IMG/VR virus record: IMGVR_UViG_3300015182_000011
Reading direction: 5' to 3' (one strand)
Length of the DNA stretch: 5,158 nucleotides
DNA from: a virus
Lineage: Duplodnaviria > Heunggongvirae > Uroviricota > Caudoviricetes
Positions 1 to 5,158 of the stretch are shown here, piece by piece. A program made the position numbers and the translations under genes. How positions within the stretch are numbered: the stretch's first letter is position 1; each line of letters starts with the position of its first letter. A model generated the notes under the pieces. That model was not told the origin of the DNA, searched no databases, and saw only the letters and a list, made by a program, of their open reading frames with translations.

Positions 1-1323
1 ATCCGTCAGGATGAGCTTATCCATCTCCGCCCACTTCCGGTAAAGTTCTGCCTGCTGCCGCGAGCATCGCTCCAGCCGTCCTTCCGGAAGCCAGAATTTA
101 AAATCAGCATGAACATGTCCGTTATCGGTTCGCCAGAGTTTTGCCGCCGCACAGATATCAATCTTATGAGCAAGGTCGACGCCGACCCACATGGGATATG
201 TTTTCAGCTCATGTTGTGGAGCAATGTATTCGCACTTCTCCCACTTAATCATATCCATCCAGGCAGATTCGGCAGTGACCCACACATTCATGTGTTTGGT
301 AAAAAAATTCACCCGCGCAGAGACCTGCTCCTTCGCTTTTTTCGCCAGACGACGCAGATCATCCCAGCGTTTACAGATGCCCAGGCCAGGATTCGCTTTC
401 TGCCAGACCGTTTCATCAAACGGATCATCTCCCTCATCGAGCGTGTAAATGATCGCAAAGTAGGAGTCGTCTTTTACCGCGCCCTCCACGTCGCTGTTAT
501 AGCCTCGCAATACCTTAATGGCGTAATCGCGCTGCTCGTAGCAAATCCCTTCCTTGTTAAAGCCAGCCGTGGTGATGCCAAATAACAGAGACTGCAGACG
601 GGCACCGGTTGCCGTTTCCAGAACGTCCCACACGTCACGGGTTTTATGAGCATGCAGCTCATCAATAATGGCGCAGTGGATGTTCAGACCGTCCAGGTTG
701 TTTGCATCCGAGGAAAGCGGTTCAAATTTTGATGCGCTCTGCTCCTGGTAAATCGCCAGCTTGTTGAAATCAAACAACCGCCCGAGTGTCGACCGGGCTT
801 TTCTGACCATATTTTTGGCGTCTTCAAACACAATTCTGGCCTGGTCACGCGTGGTTGCGGCTGAATACACCTCAGCCCCGCCTTCACCATCTGCCCCCGT
901 CATATACAGACCGATACCCGATGACAGGGTTGATTTTGCGTTTTTACGGGCAACTTCGTTGTATGCTGTCCGGAACCGGCGCACCATCACCGGGCGTCCA
1001 CTGCCATCGCTGCGCATGACAACTTCCCCGGTTTCTTCATTCACCAGCGGAATGACAAAACCAAAAATATTAATGAGGATAAACACATGCCAGTCCATCA
1101 ACTCAATGGGCTGACCTGCCAGCGCCCCTTTCACATGGGGTACAAATTTGTAGAAATTAAGGATGTGCTGTGCACGGGGTTCACTGAAATAAATCCCCCG
1201 CTCTTCGCCGTACTTCAGATCATCAAGAAAACGCTGGCAGGCCAGACGGACAAATTCGCCAGCAACAATTTCTCCTGCAACAACACGTTCGGCGTAGCGG
1301 ATCCCGTCAGCCACTTTTGCCAT
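1..1323 (-). CDS. terL: Phage terminase large subunit (HK97/Terminase_1-like), N-terminal 441 codons; 3' partial, C-terminus lies beyond position 1
   Basis: Checked codon by codon: no stop in the minus frame from ATG 1323..1321 to the window edge. Translation starts MAKVADGIRYAERVVAGEIVAGEFVRLACQRFLDDLKYGEE and contains a P-loop-like segment EVARKNAKST, matching large-terminase ATPase domains as I recall them. The ATG overlaps the upstream TerS stop (ATGA at 1320..1323), the usual terS-terL coupling. It is absent from the ORF track only because it has no in-window stop. Confidence 0.9.
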   Translation of the reverse strand, partial: MAKVADGIRYAERVVAGEIVAGEFVRLACQRFLDDLKYGEERGIYFSEPRAQHILNFYKFVPHVKGALAGQPIELMDWHVFILINIFGFVIPLVNEETGEVVMRSDGSGRPVMVRRFRTAYNEVARKNAKSTLSSGIGLYMTGADGEGGAEVYSAATTRDQARIVFEDAKNMVRKARSTLGRLFDFNKLAIYQEQSASKFEPLSSDANNLDGLNIHCAIIDELHAHKTRDVWDVLETATGARLQSLLFGITTAGFNKEGICYEQRDYAIKVLRGYNSDVEGAVKDDSYFAIIYTLDEGDDPFDETVWQKANPGLGICKRWDDLRRLAKKAKEQVSARVNFFTKHMNVWVTAESAWMDMIKWEKCEYIAPQHELKTYPMWVGVDLAHKIDICAAAKLWRTDNGHVHADFKFWLPEGRLERCSRQQAELYRKWAEMDKLILTD

Positions 1324-1805
1324 CAGTCTCTCGCTTTTAAAAGCTCTGCCAGCGGATCAACATCATCCGGTCCGGCGGTATTTACTTTCGCCCGGCTTGC
1401 CGGTGACATACCAAACTCTGCAAGCATCGCCCGAATCCGCTTCCAGGCATCAGCCTTCATCGCAGCAGCCGGGTGTGCCTTGATCAGCACATCGCCATTC
1501 TGCGTTTCCGTGCGGTAGGTATAACCCTCAACATCGAGTATTTCGCAGTGATGCCGGTATTCGGTGTAGGCTTCCACCAGTAACTCGAGCGCACGTGCAT
1601 CGAGCTGAGAAATGATCCCTTCCGCATTCAGCTCTTCCGCCATTCGCCTGAACCAGTACTTCCCCTGCGCCCCTAAATGTTGCGGAATTTTAGGGAGACC
1701 TTTTTCATCCTTTTTAGCGGTTTTTTTGGAGTCTTTAACTGGCCGCTTTGAGGGGTTACCTCGTATCAAATGCAGGCGTGGCGGGGTTTTCGGGGGTCCA
1801 GACAT
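1323..1805 (-). CDS. terS: Phage terminase small subunit (P27 family-like), 160 aa
   Basis: ORF-track ORF with ATG at 1805..1803 and TGA at 1325..1323. Basic N-terminus (MSGPPKTPPRLHLIRGNPSKRPVKDSKKTAKKDEKG) and the core GKYWFRRMAEELNAEGIISQLDARALELLVEAY resemble P27-family small terminases. It sits directly upstream of, and overlaps, the large terminase. Confidence 0.88.
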   Translation of the reverse strand: MSGPPKTPPRLHLIRGNPSKRPVKDSKKTAKKDEKGLPKIPQHLGAQGKYWFRRMAEELNAEGIISQLDARALELLVEAYTEYRHHCEILDVEGYTYRTETQNGDVLIKAHPAAAMKADAWKRIRAMLAEFGMSPASRAKVNTAGPDDVDPLAELLKARD

Positions 1806-1952
1806 AATCGATTTTACCTATCAATCATTTAATCACATTCCAAAAAAAAGTTTTCGAACCTGCGGCGATGCGAGGAAAGGTCAGGCGGCGGTACTGAGCA
1901 GCCAGGGTTGCAGAGATTTGACCTGCCCCTCCCCTACAGATGGGAACTGTTA
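1806..1952. other. Intergenic gap between HNH endonuclease and terS; candidate cos (packaging/cohesive-end) region
   Basis: 147-bp non-coding gap at the position where HK97-type phages carry cos (HNH - cos - terS - terL). It has an A8 tract (1852..1859) beside a GC-rich block that includes GGCGGCG at 1886..1892 (within caggcggcggtactg, 1883..1897), reminiscent of the GGGCGGCG core of the lambda cohesive end. The exact nick sites cannot be determined from sequence alone. Confidence 0.3.
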
Positions 1953-2303
1953 TCAATTGAGGCGTTCGCGCGCTGTTTTTGCTTTATGACAGGGCCAGCA
2001 CAGACTCTGCAGGTTACTGTCTGCATCCGTGCCACCATGAGCTTTCGGAATGATGTGGTCCACAGTTCTGGCTTCAACGGCTCTCCCATTGCGCAGGCAG
2101 TTCTGACACAGATGATTATCACGCTTCAGTATGCGCGCACGTATGGCATCCCATTTCGAGCCATAGCCACGCTGGTGGCGGCTCAGTCCGCGTTGATGCT
2201 GTACCCATCCTTCGCCACGATGTTTATCGCAGTAACCAGAACTGTCTGTGGTTGTACCTGCACATCCACGCTTACGGCAGGCGCGTGGGATTCGTGGGGG
2301 CAT
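1953..2303 (-). CDS. Phage HNH homing-type endonuclease (terminase-associated), about 116 aa
   Basis: The translation has the HNH/zinc-finger signature CQNC...VDHIIPKAHGGTDADSNLQSLCWPCH plus an N-terminal Cys cluster CRKRGCAGTTTDSSGYCDKH. I place the start at ATG 2303..2301, which has GGAG five nt upstream. The ORF-track start at 2402 is a TTG with no RBS, and ATG 2348 also lacks an RBS. The gene lies immediately upstream of cos/terS, as in HK97-like phages. Confidence 0.82.
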   Translation of the reverse strand: MPPRIPRACRKRGCAGTTTDSSGYCDKHRGEGWVQHQRGLSRHQRGYGSKWDAIRARILKRDNHLCQNCLRNGRAVEARTVDHIIPKAHGGTDADSNLQSLCWPCHKAKTARERLN

Positions 2304-2423
2304 ATGTACTCCAATGAAGAAGCCACCGACATAGCCTCCTCCATTCATAGTGAAACTATTTTCATCTACCCAGTAATGAATTCTTTGTAGAGTTGTGATC
2401 AATACAACTCACTAATGGAGAGG

Positions 2424-2445
2424 CTTGTCCAACACGTTGGACAAG
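2424..2445. repeat. 22-bp inverted repeat CTTGTCCAAC-AC-GTTGGACAAG (perfect 10-bp arms) followed by a T-rich tract on the + strand
   Basis: Read directly from the sequence: arms 2424..2433 and 2436..2445 are exact reverse complements, followed by tttcctgtttgattt at 2446..2460. It lies in the intergenic region between the HNH start and a small plus-strand ORF. It could be a plus-strand intrinsic terminator-like hairpin or an operator for a dimeric DNA-binding protein. Confidence 0.45.
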
Positions 2446-2525
2446 TTTCCTGTTTGATTTACTGGACACTATAGAAGGACAGAATGCCTTCATCACTCGA
2501 ATAACATCAATTAAGGAGGTTCAAC

Positions 2526-2648
2526 ATGTTTCATTCCACAAATCATCAGGCTGTAATTATGGCTGCATCAGCTTGTGCCACAGACCTTTTCCGCTTCACT
2601 TTGAGCCTGATTCATTTCTACCTGACCGGCTCGCCTCTATCTTTTTAA
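2526..2648 (+). CDS. Hypothetical small protein (40 aa) with a consensus Shine-Dalgarno
   Basis: ATG at 2526 is preceded by TAAGGAGGT (2512..2520) at a 5-nt spacing, a near-perfect RBS. The ORF runs to TAA at 2646..2648 and translates MFHSTNHQAVIMAASACATDLFRFTLSLIHFYLTGSPLSF. It sits in otherwise non-coding DNA between HNH and bor. I recognise no homology; the call rests on the RBS alone. Confidence 0.3.
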   Translation: MFHSTNHQAVIMAASACATDLFRFTLSLIHFYLTGSPLSF

Positions 2649-2828
2649 TCCCCGCTTTATCCAAATTGCATTGCCAGAATGCCGACAACAGACTGACATT
2701 CAAATCCTGACTACCTCCAATAGGCTGAGCATCCACCTATATAGTTTTAATTTTCATCAATCCATTTAACTATCGTTTAATTGTTGTCACATAGGATTCT
2801 GCCGTTTTTAACAATGCAGGATAATAAG

Positions 2829-3122
2829 ATGAAAAAAATGTTGTTTTCTGCCGCTCTGGCAATGCTTATTACAGGATGTGCTCAACAGACGTTTACTGTT
2901 GGAAACAAACCGACAGCAGTAACACCAAAGGAAACCATCACCCATCATTTCTTCGTTTCGGGAATTGGACAGGAGAAAACTGTTGATGCAGCCAAAATTT
3001 GTGGCGGCGCAGAAAATGTTGTTAAAACAGAAACCCAGCAAACATTCGTAAATGGATTTCTCGGTTTTATTACTTTAGGCATTTATACTCCACTGGAAGC
3101 GCGTGTGTATTGCTCACAATAA
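2829..3122 (+). CDS. bor: Bor-family outer-membrane lipoprotein (lambda Bor-like serum-resistance protein), 97 aa
   Basis: From ATG 2829 the translation is MKKMLFSAALAMLITGCAQQTFTVGNKPTAVTPKETITHHFFVSGIGQEKTVDAAKICGGAENVVKTETQQTFVNGFLGFITLGIYTPLEARVYCSQ, with a lipobox LITGC and near-identity along its length to lambda Bor as I recall it. It is on the strand opposite the late genes and convergent with Rz, as in lambda. The ORF-track N-terminal extension (2781..2828) is rejected. Confidence 0.9.
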   Translation: MKKMLFSAALAMLITGCAQQTFTVGNKPTAVTPKETITHHFFVSGIGQEKTVDAAKICGGAENVVKTETQQTFVNGFLGFITLGIYTPLEARVYCSQ

Positions 3123-3132
3123 TTGCATGAGT

Positions 3133-3150
3133 TGCCCATCGATATGGGCA
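3133..3150. terminator. Hairpin (7-bp stem TGCCCAT/ATGGGCA, 4-nt loop) between the convergent bor and Rz genes; possible bidirectional terminator or transcript-stabilising element
   Basis: Read directly from the sequence at 3133..3150, inside the 31-bp gap between the bor stop (3122) and the Rz stop (3154). It has no flanking U-tract on either strand, so intrinsic-terminator function is uncertain. Confidence 0.3.
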
Positions 3151-3153
3151 GCT

Positions 3154-3615
3154 CTATCTGCACTGCTCATTAATATACTTCTGGGTTCCTTCCAGTTGTT
3201 TTTGCATTGTGATCAGCCTCTCTCTGAGGGTGAAATAATCCCGTTCAGCGGTGTCTGCCAGTCGGGGGCTGGTTGCATTATCCACGCCGGAGGCGGTGGT
3301 GGCTTCACGCACTGACTGACAGACTGCTTTGATGTGCAACCGACGACGACCAGCGGCAACATCAGCGCGCAGAGTTTCATTTTCAGCTTTCGCATTGGCT
3401 AATTCTCTCGAGTACTTTGCATCGAGTGCAGCAACATCACGCTGACGCTGCTGCATGTCAGCGATAGTGGCGATCGCCTGCTTCAGCTCACTGACTTTTT
3501 TATCACGCTGTTCTTTGTAGGCGATGGCGTTATCACGGTAATGATTGACCGCCCACGACAGGCAGACGATGATGCAGATAACCAAAGCATAAATAATCGC
3601 GGCGACTCTGCTCAC
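3154..3615 (-). CDS. Rz: Rz i-spanin (inner-membrane spanin subunit), 153 aa
   Basis: From GTG 3615..3613 the translation is [39 protein letters not shown]...[20 protein letters not shown]: an N-terminal TM helix followed by coiled coil, close to lambda Rz. The GTG start overlaps the endolysin stop (GTGA). The ORF-track TTG start at 3630 is rejected. Confidence 0.9.
3213..3395 (-). CDS. Rz1: Rz1 o-spanin (outer-membrane lipoprotein spanin subunit), 60 aa, fully embedded in Rz in another frame
   Basis: ATG at 3395..3393. Translation [60 protein letters not shown] has a lipobox (VVVGC) and a proline-rich segment, matching lambda Rz1. It is nested inside Rz in a different frame, the classic embedded spanin architecture. 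Confidence 0.85.
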
Positions 3616-4145
3616 TGCTCTATCCCCCAACAGGCTAATGCGCTTTCCTGGTCACGACGAATAACCTGTCCATAGCAGTTATTTGAACGTATGCGGCAAT
3701 CGCGCCCACCATCTTTTATCCACCAGCGAATCGCCTCGCATGCGCCCTTACGATCACCGGCATTCAGCCGCTTATAAAACGTCGACGGGAAACACTTACC
3801 GGGGCCAATGTTATAGGGACAGAATGACGCTATACCCGCTTTTTGTGGTTCGGTCAGTAGTACTTTAATATTGCGCTCCACCCATGCCAGCGCCTTATCA
3901 CGCTCAATGGCGTTGACCTGGTCGCATTTTTCCTTCGACAGTTTCATACCGGGAAAAACGGGTTTTCCATCCACCATCGTGGCACCCCGACAGATGGTCC
4001 AGATGCCGGACCCATCGCGGTATGCCGTTGTGTGGTTACCTTCTTTTTCATCCAGAAACTGGTCGAGAATATCAGGCGCGGGCGCACCGACGGCAATCAG
4101 TGCCAGAACGGCAGCCGACAGGCCGTATCTGATTTTTGCGTTCAT
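3612..4145 (-). CDS. R: SAR endolysin (phage lysozyme, T4-lysozyme/P21 R-like muramidase), 177 aa
   Basis: ATG at 4145..4143. The N-terminus has a weakly hydrophobic Ala/Gly-rich signal-anchor-release segment ([16 protein letters not shown]), followed by the catalytic E-x8-D-x5-T arrangement ([16 protein letters not shown]) typical of phage lysozymes. It is followed directly by Rz/Rz1. Confidence 0.9.
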
Positions 4146-4208
4146 GGATATTTATCAGGATTTATCGGTTTCTGCCCACGGACAGGTTTATCTGTTCCGG
4201 TCAGTGAC

Positions 4209-4559
4209 TTAAGGTTGTGATTCCGGAGGAGTCTTCAGAGAACCAGTAATTCTTCCCGGTAGCTTTCCTTTGTAGGTTATCCATACATTCTGCGCCTCTA
4301 AAATTACGGGGCGCTTTTCCGGCGACTGCTCATCCCCTTCACATAACCCGGCAGCAACATCCAGGAAGACCTGTCTGATACTCATTCTGGCTGCTGCCTC
4401 ATAAAACTCCGGCGCGGCACCTTCAACACGGTCCAGCGAGATGTCCAGGTCAAAAATTTCACCGTCAAAGCGTTTTTTGTCCCGTAACGCTAAAGTTACC
4501 GTAACTTTATTCTCAAAATTGCGGATCCCTTTCACAATCAGTTCATAGTTTTGAGTCAT
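4209..4559 (-). CDS. ydfR: Unknown-function protein, YdfR-like (DUF1327-like), 116 aa, inserted between holin and endolysin
   Basis: ATG at 4559..4557 with GGAG 9 nt upstream, lying inside the holin 3' end; only 4 nt separate the holin stop from this start. The translation MTQNYELIVKGIRNFENKVTVTLALRDKKRFDGEIFDLDISLDRVEGAAPEFYEAAARMSIRQVFLDVAAGL... is soluble and acidic, with no TM segment or signal peptide. The same holin - ydfR - lysozyme position occurs in the E. coli K-12 Qin prophage (essQ-ydfR-rrrQ). The symbol is assigned by position and recalled family resemblance, not by a search. Confidence 0.78.
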   Translation of the reverse strand: MTQNYELIVKGIRNFENKVTVTLALRDKKRFDGEIFDLDISLDRVEGAAPEFYEAAARMSIRQVFLDVAAGLCEGDEQSPEKRPVILEAQNVWITYKGKLPGRITGSLKTPPESQP

Positions 4560-4563
4560 TGAA

Positions 4564-4779
4564 TTACTCTCCCCGTGCCGCCTTACGACGGTCCTCTCTG
4601 ATTTTGAAATACAGGTTAGTCAGATATGTCAGCAGCCCAAACAGCAGACTCCCCAGCACGCCTATTGCCGCCCACTGAGACGGGGAAACCCTGTCCAGCA
4701 ACTGCAGGAACCAGTAGCCCGTTCCCACCGCTGACGTGGTGTATGACACACCTGTTGTGATTTTTTCCATCTGGTCCAT
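4564..4779 (-). CDS. S: Class II holin / pinholin (phage 21 S-like), 71 aa, with dual-start motif (Met1 and Met4)
   Basis: From ATG 4779..4777 the translation is [71 protein letters not shown]: two TM segments and a C-terminus near-identical to S21 as I recall it. A second in-frame ATG at 4770..4768 forms the dual-start pair. A GGGAGA RBS lies upstream. The ORF-track GTG extension to 4884 would read through the terminator hairpin and is rejected. Confidence 0.85.
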
Positions 4780-4811
4780 ACCCCGTCTCCCGTTATCCGG
4801 AAGCTGACAAC

Positions 4812-4843
4812 AATAAAAAAGCCACCAGTTAACTACTGATGGC
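4812..4843 (-). terminator. Rho-independent terminator on the minus strand (tR'-like, between the late promoter and the holin)
   Basis: The minus-strand RNA would form an 8-bp stem (GCCAUCAG / CUGGUGGC, with one G-U wobble), a 7-nt loop and a UUUUUUAUU tail (plus 4812..4820 is aataaaaaa). The stem is better paired on the minus transcript than on the plus. It lies 33 nt upstream of the holin start, matching the lambdoid PR'-qut-tR'-S layout. Confidence 0.6.
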
Positions 4844-5124
4844 TCTGATAACTCATGCAAGCGTCTCAGACGATCCACTGACACTACCGGTGAGTTTAAC
4901 GATACCTTCCATTTGACTGGCTCACTTTTTATGATGATGCCGGTGTATTTATCTCCAGCACCAGACTTTCTATCTCAACGCCATACGTTGCATTTTTGGT
5001 AATATCCGTCAGCGTCAGTGCATTTAGTCCCACTGCCAGACCGTCTTTTATGGTCTGGAATGCCGGGCCAGTACGATGACGTAGTATCACTCCGGCTCAG
5101 TTGCACCACTGACCACCACATCAC
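4844..5124 (-). promoter_or_regulatory. Late-gene leader region expected to hold the Q-dependent late promoter (PR'-like) and qut site; exact elements not resolved
   Basis: Non-coding region upstream of the tR'-like terminator and holin. The best sigma70-like candidate on the minus strand is TTGAGA (4978..4973), a 17-nt spacer, then GAGATA (4955..4950), a weak -10. Position and lambdoid synteny support the call; the motif match does not. Confidence 0.3.
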
Positions 5125-5158
5125 AGATCGGAAGAGCGTCGTGTAGGGAAAGAGTGTA
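5125..5158 (+). other. Illumina TruSeq adapter sequence (non-biological, untrimmed contig end)
   Basis: 5125..5158 is AGATCGGAAGAGCGTCGTGTAGGGAAAGAGTGTA, an exact match to the first 34 nt of the reverse complement of the TruSeq universal adapter, recalled from memory. Confidence 0.92.

What the first reader, a model, noticed from the sequence alone, without database searches (positions are those of the whole stretch)
5125..5158. Window ends in an Illumina TruSeq adapter: contig-end artefact, not biology
The terminal 34 nt match the adapter read-through sequence exactly. The assembly contig therefore stops inside the late-gene leader, upstream of the holin, and the Q antiterminator gene and any upstream genes are simply not assembled here. 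Motifs or ORFs that touch 5125..5158 should not be interpreted, and the true genomic neighbour of 5124 is unknown.
Basis: seen in the sequence. Interest (0 to 1): 0.55.

Follow-up and report, generated by a model that had tools for sequence, protein, structure and literature searches.

The report
Illumina adapter stuck on contig end
The last 34 bases of this window are a synthetic Illumina sequencing adapter attached to an otherwise ordinary E. coli prophage fragment, so they are a laboratory artefact to trim away, not biology.

Summary
Window 5125..5158 is an exact copy of the first 34 nt of the reverse complement of the Illumina TruSeq-type universal adapter. It starts at the adapter's ligation end and points outward at the end of the window.

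Window 1..5124 is identical, with 0 mismatches, to a lambdoid prophage in the E. coli MRSN346595 chromosome. Similarity to every phage record and every complete E. coli genome stops exactly at 5124. Seven relatives read directly all continue with CTTCTGCTGCAATCGCC..., and 724 complete genomes span the junction without a break.

The adapter 34-mer is essentially absent from natural E. coli. In public viral contigs it sits almost always at the contig end it points to, which is a documented artefact.

- The break is not in a non-coding leader. It lies 11 codons before the stop of a small DUF1737 ORF, 345 nt upstream of the P21-type holin. Q lies 2.0-3.1 kb further on in relatives.
- The missing neighbour of 5124 is not observed in this sample, but it is highly predictable from relatives.

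Verdict: an ordinary, well-known artefact. Mask 5125..5158. Interest is low.

The parts
5125..5158 (+). Synthetic sequence: the first 34 nt of the reverse complement of the Illumina TruSeq-type universal (P5-side) adapter, which is the read-2 read-through sequence. The ligation end (A of the A-tail, then GATCGG) abuts the genomic DNA.
   Evidence: Exact 34/34 match. Listed as 'adapter 2' in PMC7303419. No homology to any relative. Only 7/34 identity to the natural continuation.
1..5124 (.). Genuine E. coli lambdoid prophage DNA. All genes are on the minus strand except bor/iss: terminase large subunit (5' part, 1..1323), small subunit (1323..1805), HNH (1953..2303), Bor/Iss (2829..3122, +), Rz (3154..3615) with embedded Rz1 (3213..3395), lysozyme (3612..4145), YdfR/DUF1327 (4209..4559), class II holin (4564..4779), orf3 (4929..5090).
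   Evidence: 0 mismatches to the E. coli MRSN346595 chromosome and 1-2 mismatches to phages vB_EcoS-716R1 and vB_EcoS-813R8. Pfam assignments; record annotation.
5124..5125 (.). Junction between genomic DNA and adapter. Every database alignment ends at 5124.
   Evidence: (query_to = 5124 or 525 of 559), plus the alignment.
5087..5124 (-). Truncated 3' end of a 67-aa DUF1737 ORF: the last 11 complete codons plus the stop. In relatives the ORF spans window-equivalent 5087..5290. The junction codon is changed from GGT (Gly) to TGT (Cys) by the adapter's first base.
   Evidence: Translation of L002 and L004 against the window. PF08410 E=4e-17 for the full-length relative. Annotation.
5018..5146 (+). 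Spurious mechanical ORF (42 aa) whose TAG stop (5144..5146) lies inside the adapter. Not to be interpreted.
4564..4779 (-). Class II (P21 S-type) holin, the first lysis gene. Its ATG is 345 nt from the junction.
   Evidence: PF04971 E=9e-33. Annotation. Distance.

Best explanation
The last 34 bases are Illumina adapter, not genome.

Shown:
- The tail is an exact copy of the P5-side universal adapter in read-2 read-through orientation.
- It is fused at 5124|5125 to DNA that is otherwise identical to a known E. coli prophage.
- That prophage continues differently in every relative examined.

Inferred mechanism:
- A library fragment had one end at 5124 and an insert shorter than the read length, so read 2 ran through the insert into the adapter.
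- The reads were assembled without complete adapter trimming.
- The assembler extended the contig tip along the adapter-bearing read(s) and then stopped. Either no reads carried the genomic path further (low coverage), or the adapter k-mers, which are shared with many other fragments, broke the assembly graph there.

The consequence is a contig that ends 11 codons before the stop of a DUF1737 ORF in the Q-to-holin interval of the late operon, with 34 non-biological bases attached.
For: 1. Exact 34/34 match starting at the adapter's ligation end, with chance about 3e-21 per position. The string is given as 'adapter 2' in PMC7303419.
2. Window 1..5124 has 0 mismatches to the E. coli MRSN346595 chromosome. 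Alignments to 563 phage records and thousands of E. coli records never pass 5124.
3. Seven independent loci continue CTTCTGCTGCAATCGCC... after 5124, and the tail shares only 7/34 bases with that. 724 complete genomes hold a contiguous stretch covering at least 80% of a 1001-nt query centred on the junction, which necessarily spans it.
4. The 34-mer is absent from 5,425 of 5,426 complete E. coli genomes. The single 28-nt hit sits in a fliI gene annotated as frameshifted, so it is itself an evident artefact. Only 7 of 50,697 phage records hold it, from unrelated hosts.
5. In IMG/VR viral contigs the same 34-mer occurs in at least 120 contigs. 115 of 123 occurrences lie within 200 nt of the end they point to, 80 of them within 58 nt, and 102 of 123 tails match the full adapter exactly. 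The orientation and position are the same as here.
6. PMC11536531 documents that forward adapters concentrate at contig ends and their reverse complements at contig beginnings in microbial genome databases. It also argues that they can break contigs.
Against: - No reads are available, so soft-clipping, coverage and trimming history are not observed.
- The source contig was not found in the viral, metagenome or genome collections, nor among the places shown by an exact-protein look-up. That the window end is a contig end therefore rests on the window stopping inside the adapter.
- Only 34 of the adapter's 58 nt are present.
- The same adapter sequence is used by many TruSeq-compatible kits, so the brand cannot be assigned.
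Confidence: 0.97

Rival explanations
1. The adapter marks a genuine physical DNA end. Under this reading 5124 is a fixed terminus of a DNA molecule in the sample, such as a packaged phage genome end or a specific nuclease cut. Many fragments would then start there, adapters would be ligated to it repeatedly, and the contig would end there for a biological reason. The 34 nt themselves would still be synthetic.
For: - Adapters are ligated to whatever ends exist, and fixed phage termini do give pile-ups of fragment ends (established knowledge, the PhageTerm principle).
- The window is phage DNA carrying a terminase and HNH module.
- In the identical MRSN346595 genome the whole window matches only one place, so no intra-genome repeat boundary was seen that would explain a break at 5124.
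Against: - 5124 lies inside a small ORF 3.3 kb from the small-terminase start.
- By analogy with lambda and HK97-type cos phages (my knowledge, not tested), the packaging site is expected next to the HNH and small-terminase genes, about 1806..2828, not upstream of the lysis genes.
- One random sheared fragment end suffices to explain the data, and such adapter tips are common at arbitrary contig ends.
Confidence: 0.03
2. The window was cut from a longer contig in which the adapter is internal, giving an adapter-mediated chimeric join with unrelated DNA beyond 5158. Alternatively, the 34-mer was appended after assembly, for example through concatenation or a deliberate spike-in. It would still be an artefact, but not a read-through contig tip.
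For: - Internal adapter joins exist in public contigs. One IMG/VR contig has two copies facing each other at L050 1142..1175 (+) and 1182..1215 (-), and 8 of 123 occurrences lie more than 200 nt from the end they point to.
- The tail is exactly the 34-mer commonly listed as 'adapter 2', a length that only 4 of 123 public tips share.
Against: - A window boundary falling by accident inside a 58-nt adapter is improbable, and the odd window length (5158) fits a whole or terminal contig.
- 115 of 123 public occurrences are terminal and outward-pointing, like this one.
- Nothing in the window distinguishes these sub-cases.
Confidence: 0.05
3. The 34 nt are natural DNA of this phage or strain, either a chance match or a real insertion or recombination junction.
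For: None found. This reading stays open only because the sample's reads cannot be inspected.
Against: - The chance of an exact 34-mer is about 3e-21 per position.
- Relatives identical up to 5124 carry other sequence after it.
- The 34-mer is absent from natural E. coli genomes except one artefactual 28-nt piece.
- Its scattered occurrence at contig ends across unrelated phages and metagenomes is the signature of contamination.
Confidence: 0.003

Closest known systems
Illumina TruSeq-type universal adapter, read-2 read-through sequence (AGATCGGAAGAGCGTCGTGTAGGGAAAGAGTGT...)
   Same: Identical over all 34 nt. It starts at the ligation end directly after the insert and is oriented insert to adapter.
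   Different: Only the first 34 of 58 nt are present because the window ends. The kit or brand cannot be told, since many kits use the same sequence.
Adapter contamination at contig extremities in public microbial and viral assemblies (PMC11536531; IMG/VR contigs found here)
   Same: The same sequence, terminal position and outward orientation. The reverse-read-specific part CGTCGTGTAGGGAAAGAGTGT follows the 12-13 nt common part.
   Different: Nothing material. This is one more instance. The tip here is 34 nt, against a median of 50 nt from the adapter start to the locus end in the IMG/VR sample.
Q-to-S interval of lambdoid E. coli prophages with a P21-type lysis cassette (class II holin, YdfR/DUF1327, lysozyme, Rz/Rz1, Bor/Iss)
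   Same: The gene content and order of the genuine part of the window are identical to annotated prophages in hundreds of E. coli genomes and to phages vB_EcoS-716R1 and vB_EcoS-813R8.
   Different: The window lacks everything beyond the last 11 codons of the DUF1737 ORF. Missing are the rest of DUF1737, iraM, small ORFs, a tRNA and Q, at window-equivalent 5125 to about 7945 in relatives.

Membership tests
Illumina TruSeq-type universal adapter (read-through artefact) | Exact or near-exact match to the reverse complement of the universal adapter, beginning at its ligation end (AGATCGGAAGAGCGTCGTG...) | tested here: met
   34/34 identical from the adapter's first base. The same 34-mer is listed as 'adapter 2' in PMC7303419.
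Illumina TruSeq-type universal adapter (read-through artefact) | Located at a sequence terminus and pointing outward (genome, then adapter, then end) | tested here: met
   It occupies the last 34 bases of the window on the + strand. The geometry is the same as 115 of 123 occurrences in IMG/VR contigs and as described in PMC11536531. That the window end is the contig end is assumed, not shown.
Illumina TruSeq-type universal adapter (read-through artefact) | Homology to natural relatives stops exactly at the junction, and the relatives continue with other sequence | tested here: met
   All alignments end at 5124. Seven loci continue CTTCTGCTGC.... 724 genomes span the junction.
Illumina TruSeq-type universal adapter (read-through artefact) | The sequence is not part of the natural gene pool of the organism | tested here: met
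   There is one 28-nt hit in 5,426 complete E. coli genomes, inside a fliI gene annotated as frameshifted. Only 7 of 50,697 phage records hold it.
Illumina TruSeq-type universal adapter (read-through artefact) | The remainder of the adapter (GATCTCGGTGGTCGCCGTATCATT) follows | not testable with these tools
   The window ends after adapter base 34. In IMG/VR, 102 of 123 tails match the full adapter as far as they extend.
Illumina TruSeq-type universal adapter (read-through artefact) | Reads soft-clip, or coverage collapses, at the junction | not testable with these tools
   No reads are available, and the source contig was not found.
   PF04971 holin, PF00959 lysozyme and PF03245 Rz. Rz1 (PF06085) was called on the identical locus L006. 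All are on the minus strand.
   This is seen only in relatives with 0-2 mismatches. The gene is annotated as an antitermination protein at window-equivalent 7124..7945 (L001, L002) or 8196..9017 (L004, which has an ISApl1 insertion). It is not observable in the window itself.
   5124 lies inside a 67-aa DUF1737 ORF (window-equivalent 5087..5290, minus strand), 11 codons before its stop.

The most novel reading that the evidence does not exclude
Position 5124 could be a genuine, recurrent physical DNA end in the sample, such as the terminus of a packaged or excised prophage-derived molecule or a site-specific cut. The adapter tip would then accidentally record a real terminus inside the Q-to-holin interval, and not a random shearing point.
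Probability: 0.03. Interest if true: 0.25.

Novelty: not a real feature. Interest (0 to 1): 0.04.

Why it matters
The value is for quality control only.

- The 34 bases should be masked or trimmed. Otherwise they produce a spurious ORF (5018..5146, +) and a chimeric partial protein ending ...YTLSLHDALPI-C-DVVVSGATEPE. They also add false motifs and a false 'novel' junction, and they can seed spurious matches to other contaminated records.
- The tail shows that the assembly was made from reads that were not fully adapter-trimmed, so other contig ends from the same data set deserve the same check.
- The missing Q side does not need new data to be predicted. It is the same in hundreds of complete E. 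coli genomes.

Tried and rejected
- I looked for the source contig with a 35-nt pattern across the junction in viral, metagenome and genome collections. There were 0 hits in each.
- An exact-protein look-up with the window's YdfR variant returned only long NCBI records that read through the junction normally. So the origin of the window, and proof that the contig ends here, were not obtained.
- I considered inferring the assembler's k-mer size from the 34-nt tip length. I dropped this because read length minus insert length explains any value, and public tips range widely.
- I considered a repeat boundary or IS insertion as the cause of the break. The whole window matches only one place in the identical genome MRSN346595, and its nearby ISApl1 lies about 0.7 kb beyond 5124, not at it. 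An IS at 5124 would also have left IS bases at the tip, not adapter.
- A literature search for the adapter-encoded peptide TLSLHDALPI found nothing.
- No sigma-70-like promoter was found in 4500..5158, so nothing supports a regulatory reading of the tail.

Full report
**Observation.** The window ends ...CACCACATCAC|AGATCGGAAGAGCGTCGTGTAGGGAAAGAGTGTA. A direct comparison shows that 5125..5158 equals the first 34 nt of the reverse complement of the 58-nt TruSeq universal adapter, 34 of 34. The match starts at the adapter's ligation end. Adapter 12-mers occur nowhere else in the window, and the left end has none. An exact 34-mer at a fixed place has probability 3.4e-21. The same 34-mer is printed as 'adapter 2' of an Illumina library in PMC7303419, and the 33-mer appears in 688 papers of the held library.

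**What the rest of the window is.** Window 1..5124 matches the chromosome of E. coli MRSN346595 with 0 mismatches. It matches phages vB_EcoS-716R1 and vB_EcoS-813R8 with 1 and 2 mismatches. Pfam and the records' own annotation agree on the genes listed below. All are on the minus strand except Bor/Iss.

| Gene | Window coordinates |
|---|---|
| Terminase large subunit (5' part only) | 1..1323 |
| P27-family small terminase | 1323..1805 |
| HNH endonuclease | 1953..2303 |
| Bor/Iss lipoprotein (+ strand) | 2829..3122 |
| Rz | 3154..3615 |
| Rz1, embedded in Rz | 3213..3395 |
| Lysozyme | 3612..4145 |
| YdfR/DUF1327 | 4209..4559 |
| P21-type class II holin | 4564..4779 |
| Unassigned 53-aa ORF (orf3) | 4929..5090 |

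This is an ordinary lambdoid prophage late region.

**The junction.** Every alignment ends at 5124. This holds for 563 phage records, for 2,558 E. coli records queried with the last 559 nt, and for 6,132 records queried with the whole window. Seven loci read directly all continue CTTCTGCTGCAATCGCCTGCATCAGGGTATAAGG. They comprise four E. coli chromosomes, one draft contig and two phage records. The window's tail shares only 7 of 34 bases with that continuation. The natural base at 5125 is C, against A in the adapter, so the boundary is unambiguous. A 1001-nt query centred on the junction is covered at 80% or more by one contiguous place in 724 complete genomes, and such a place must span the junction.

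In relatives, 5124 falls inside a 67-aa DUF1737 ORF at window-equivalent 5087..5290 on the minus strand (PF08410, E=4e-17). The window keeps only its last 11 codons and the stop. The junction codon is altered from Gly to Cys, and the frame runs on into adapter-encoded YTLSLHDALPI. Beyond the junction the relatives carry the following features:
- the rest of the DUF1737 ORF
- iraM on the + strand
- small ORFs
- a tRNA
- the Q antiterminator gene, 2.0 kb away, or 3.1 kb where ISApl1 has inserted into iraM

**Is the 34-mer ever natural?** Among 5,426 complete E. coli genomes there is one hit, of 28 nt. It lies inside a fliI gene that the record annotates as frameshifted. The sequence there reads ...GTGCTCACC-AGATCGGAAGAGCGTCGTGTAGGGAAAG-CAGGACCCC..., so it is itself an assembly or polishing artefact. 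Seven of 50,697 phage records have the 34-mer, from unrelated hosts. In IMG/VR viral contigs the scan hit its limit at 120 contigs. Of 123 occurrences, 115 lie within 200 nt of the locus end they point to and 80 within 58 nt. In 102 of 123 the tail matches the full adapter as far as it extends. Plus-strand copies sit at right ends and minus-strand copies at left ends. PMC11536531 reports this pattern for microbial genome databases. It names CGTCGTGTAGGGAAAGAGTGT as the reverse-read-specific part and argues that adapter contamination can itself break contigs.

**Mechanism.** Three things are shown. The tail is synthetic adapter in read-2 read-through orientation, it is fused to genuine prophage DNA at 5124|5125, and the natural continuation differs. 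The rest is inferred:
- A fragment with one end at 5124 had an insert shorter than the read, so read 2 ran into the P5-side adapter.
- The reads were not fully trimmed.
- The assembler extended the tip along such reads and then stopped, for lack of further genomic coverage or because adapter k-mers shared by many fragments broke the graph.

In the identical genome the whole window matches only one place, and the nearest IS element is about 0.7 kb away. Neither a repeat nor an IS therefore explains a break at exactly this base.

**Rivals.**
- **Natural origin.** This is effectively excluded by the arguments above.
- **A genuine physical DNA end at 5124.** This is not excluded without reads, but it is unlikely. 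The site is inside a small ORF 3.3 kb from the small-terminase start. For an HNH and P27-terminase phage the packaging site is expected next to those genes (established knowledge, not tested here).
- **An internal adapter-mediated chimera, or a tail appended after assembly.** This cannot be separated from a read-through tip with the window alone. Internal joins do exist, for example L050. Either way the 34 nt are non-biological.

**What failed.** The source contig was not found by a junction-spanning pattern in the three collections, nor by exact-protein look-up. A search for the adapter-encoded peptide in the literature gave nothing.

**Verdict.** There are two refinements: the break is inside a DUF1737 ORF and not in a non-coding leader, and the missing neighbour is predictable from relatives. 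This is a well-known artefact of no biological interest. Mask 5125..5158.

Noticed in passing
window 4818..4846 (minus strand), T-run to about 4808: A strong intrinsic-terminator-like hairpin on the late-gene strand, with a 12-bp stem, a 5-nt loop and then UUUUUUAUUG. It lies between orf3 and the holin ATG, about 39 nt upstream of the ATG. Folding gives -19.4 kcal/mol, z = -3.5, and 0 of 200 shuffles fold as well. It could be a terminator that Q-modified polymerase reads through just before the lysis genes.
   Followed up: partly
window 3213..3395 (minus strand), inside Rz 3154..3615: A 60-aa ORF in another frame within Rz, with a lipoprotein-like N-terminus (..LVVVGC..) and a Pro-rich stretch. 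It was called as PF06085 Rz1 on the identical locus L006. This is the classic embedded Rz/Rz1 spanin arrangement.
   Followed up: partly
window 3612..4145 and 4564..4779 (minus strand): The 177-aa lysozyme starts with a weakly hydrophobic stretch ([16 protein letters not shown]) that looks like a signal-anchor-release domain. It is paired with a P21-type class II holin whose N-terminus, MDQMEK, has two Met codons three codons apart, a possible dual start. This pinholin/SAR-endolysin reading rests on my knowledge of phage 21 and was not tested.
   Followed up: no
window 2829..3122 (+ strand): A Bor-family lipoprotein (PF06291, E=4e-30), annotated in RefSeq as the increased serum survival lipoprotein Iss. 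It lies on the opposite strand between the lysis and packaging modules, as a virulence-associated moron gene.
   Followed up: partly
window 2304..2828: About 525 nt between the HNH gene and bor with no consistently annotated gene. One phage record calls a 46-aa 'DUF4347 fragment' at window-equivalent 2596..2736. By analogy with other HNH and terminase phages, this or the 1806..1952 gap is where a cos site might lie. Not examined.
   Followed up: no
L128 151..178 (NZ_CP123349.1 702311..702338): A RefSeq 'complete' E. coli chromosome carries 28 nt of the same adapter inside fliI, which is consequently annotated as a frameshifted pseudogene. This is probably a false pseudogene created by adapter contamination.
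   Followed up: partly
L050 1142..1175 (+) and 1182..1215 (-): An IMG/VR contig (IMGVR_UViG_3300045988_159093, 38.8 kb) has two copies of the adapter facing each other 6 nt apart in its interior. This is the signature of an adapter-mediated chimeric join.
   Followed up: no
L004 9846..10820 (window-equivalent 5846..6820): In MRSN346595, the genome identical to the window, an ISApl1 transposase gene interrupts iraM about 0.7 kb beyond the point where the window breaks off. If the source strain is of this type, a short-read assembly would also be expected to break there.
   Followed up: no
window-equivalent 5087..5290 (L004 9087..9290, minus strand): RefSeq annotates the DUF1737 gene as an incomplete pseudogene ('missing C-terminus'). 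The same DNA holds an intact 67-aa ORF with a stop that overlaps the start of orf3 by 4 nt, and the phage records annotate it as a normal CDS.
   Followed up: partly
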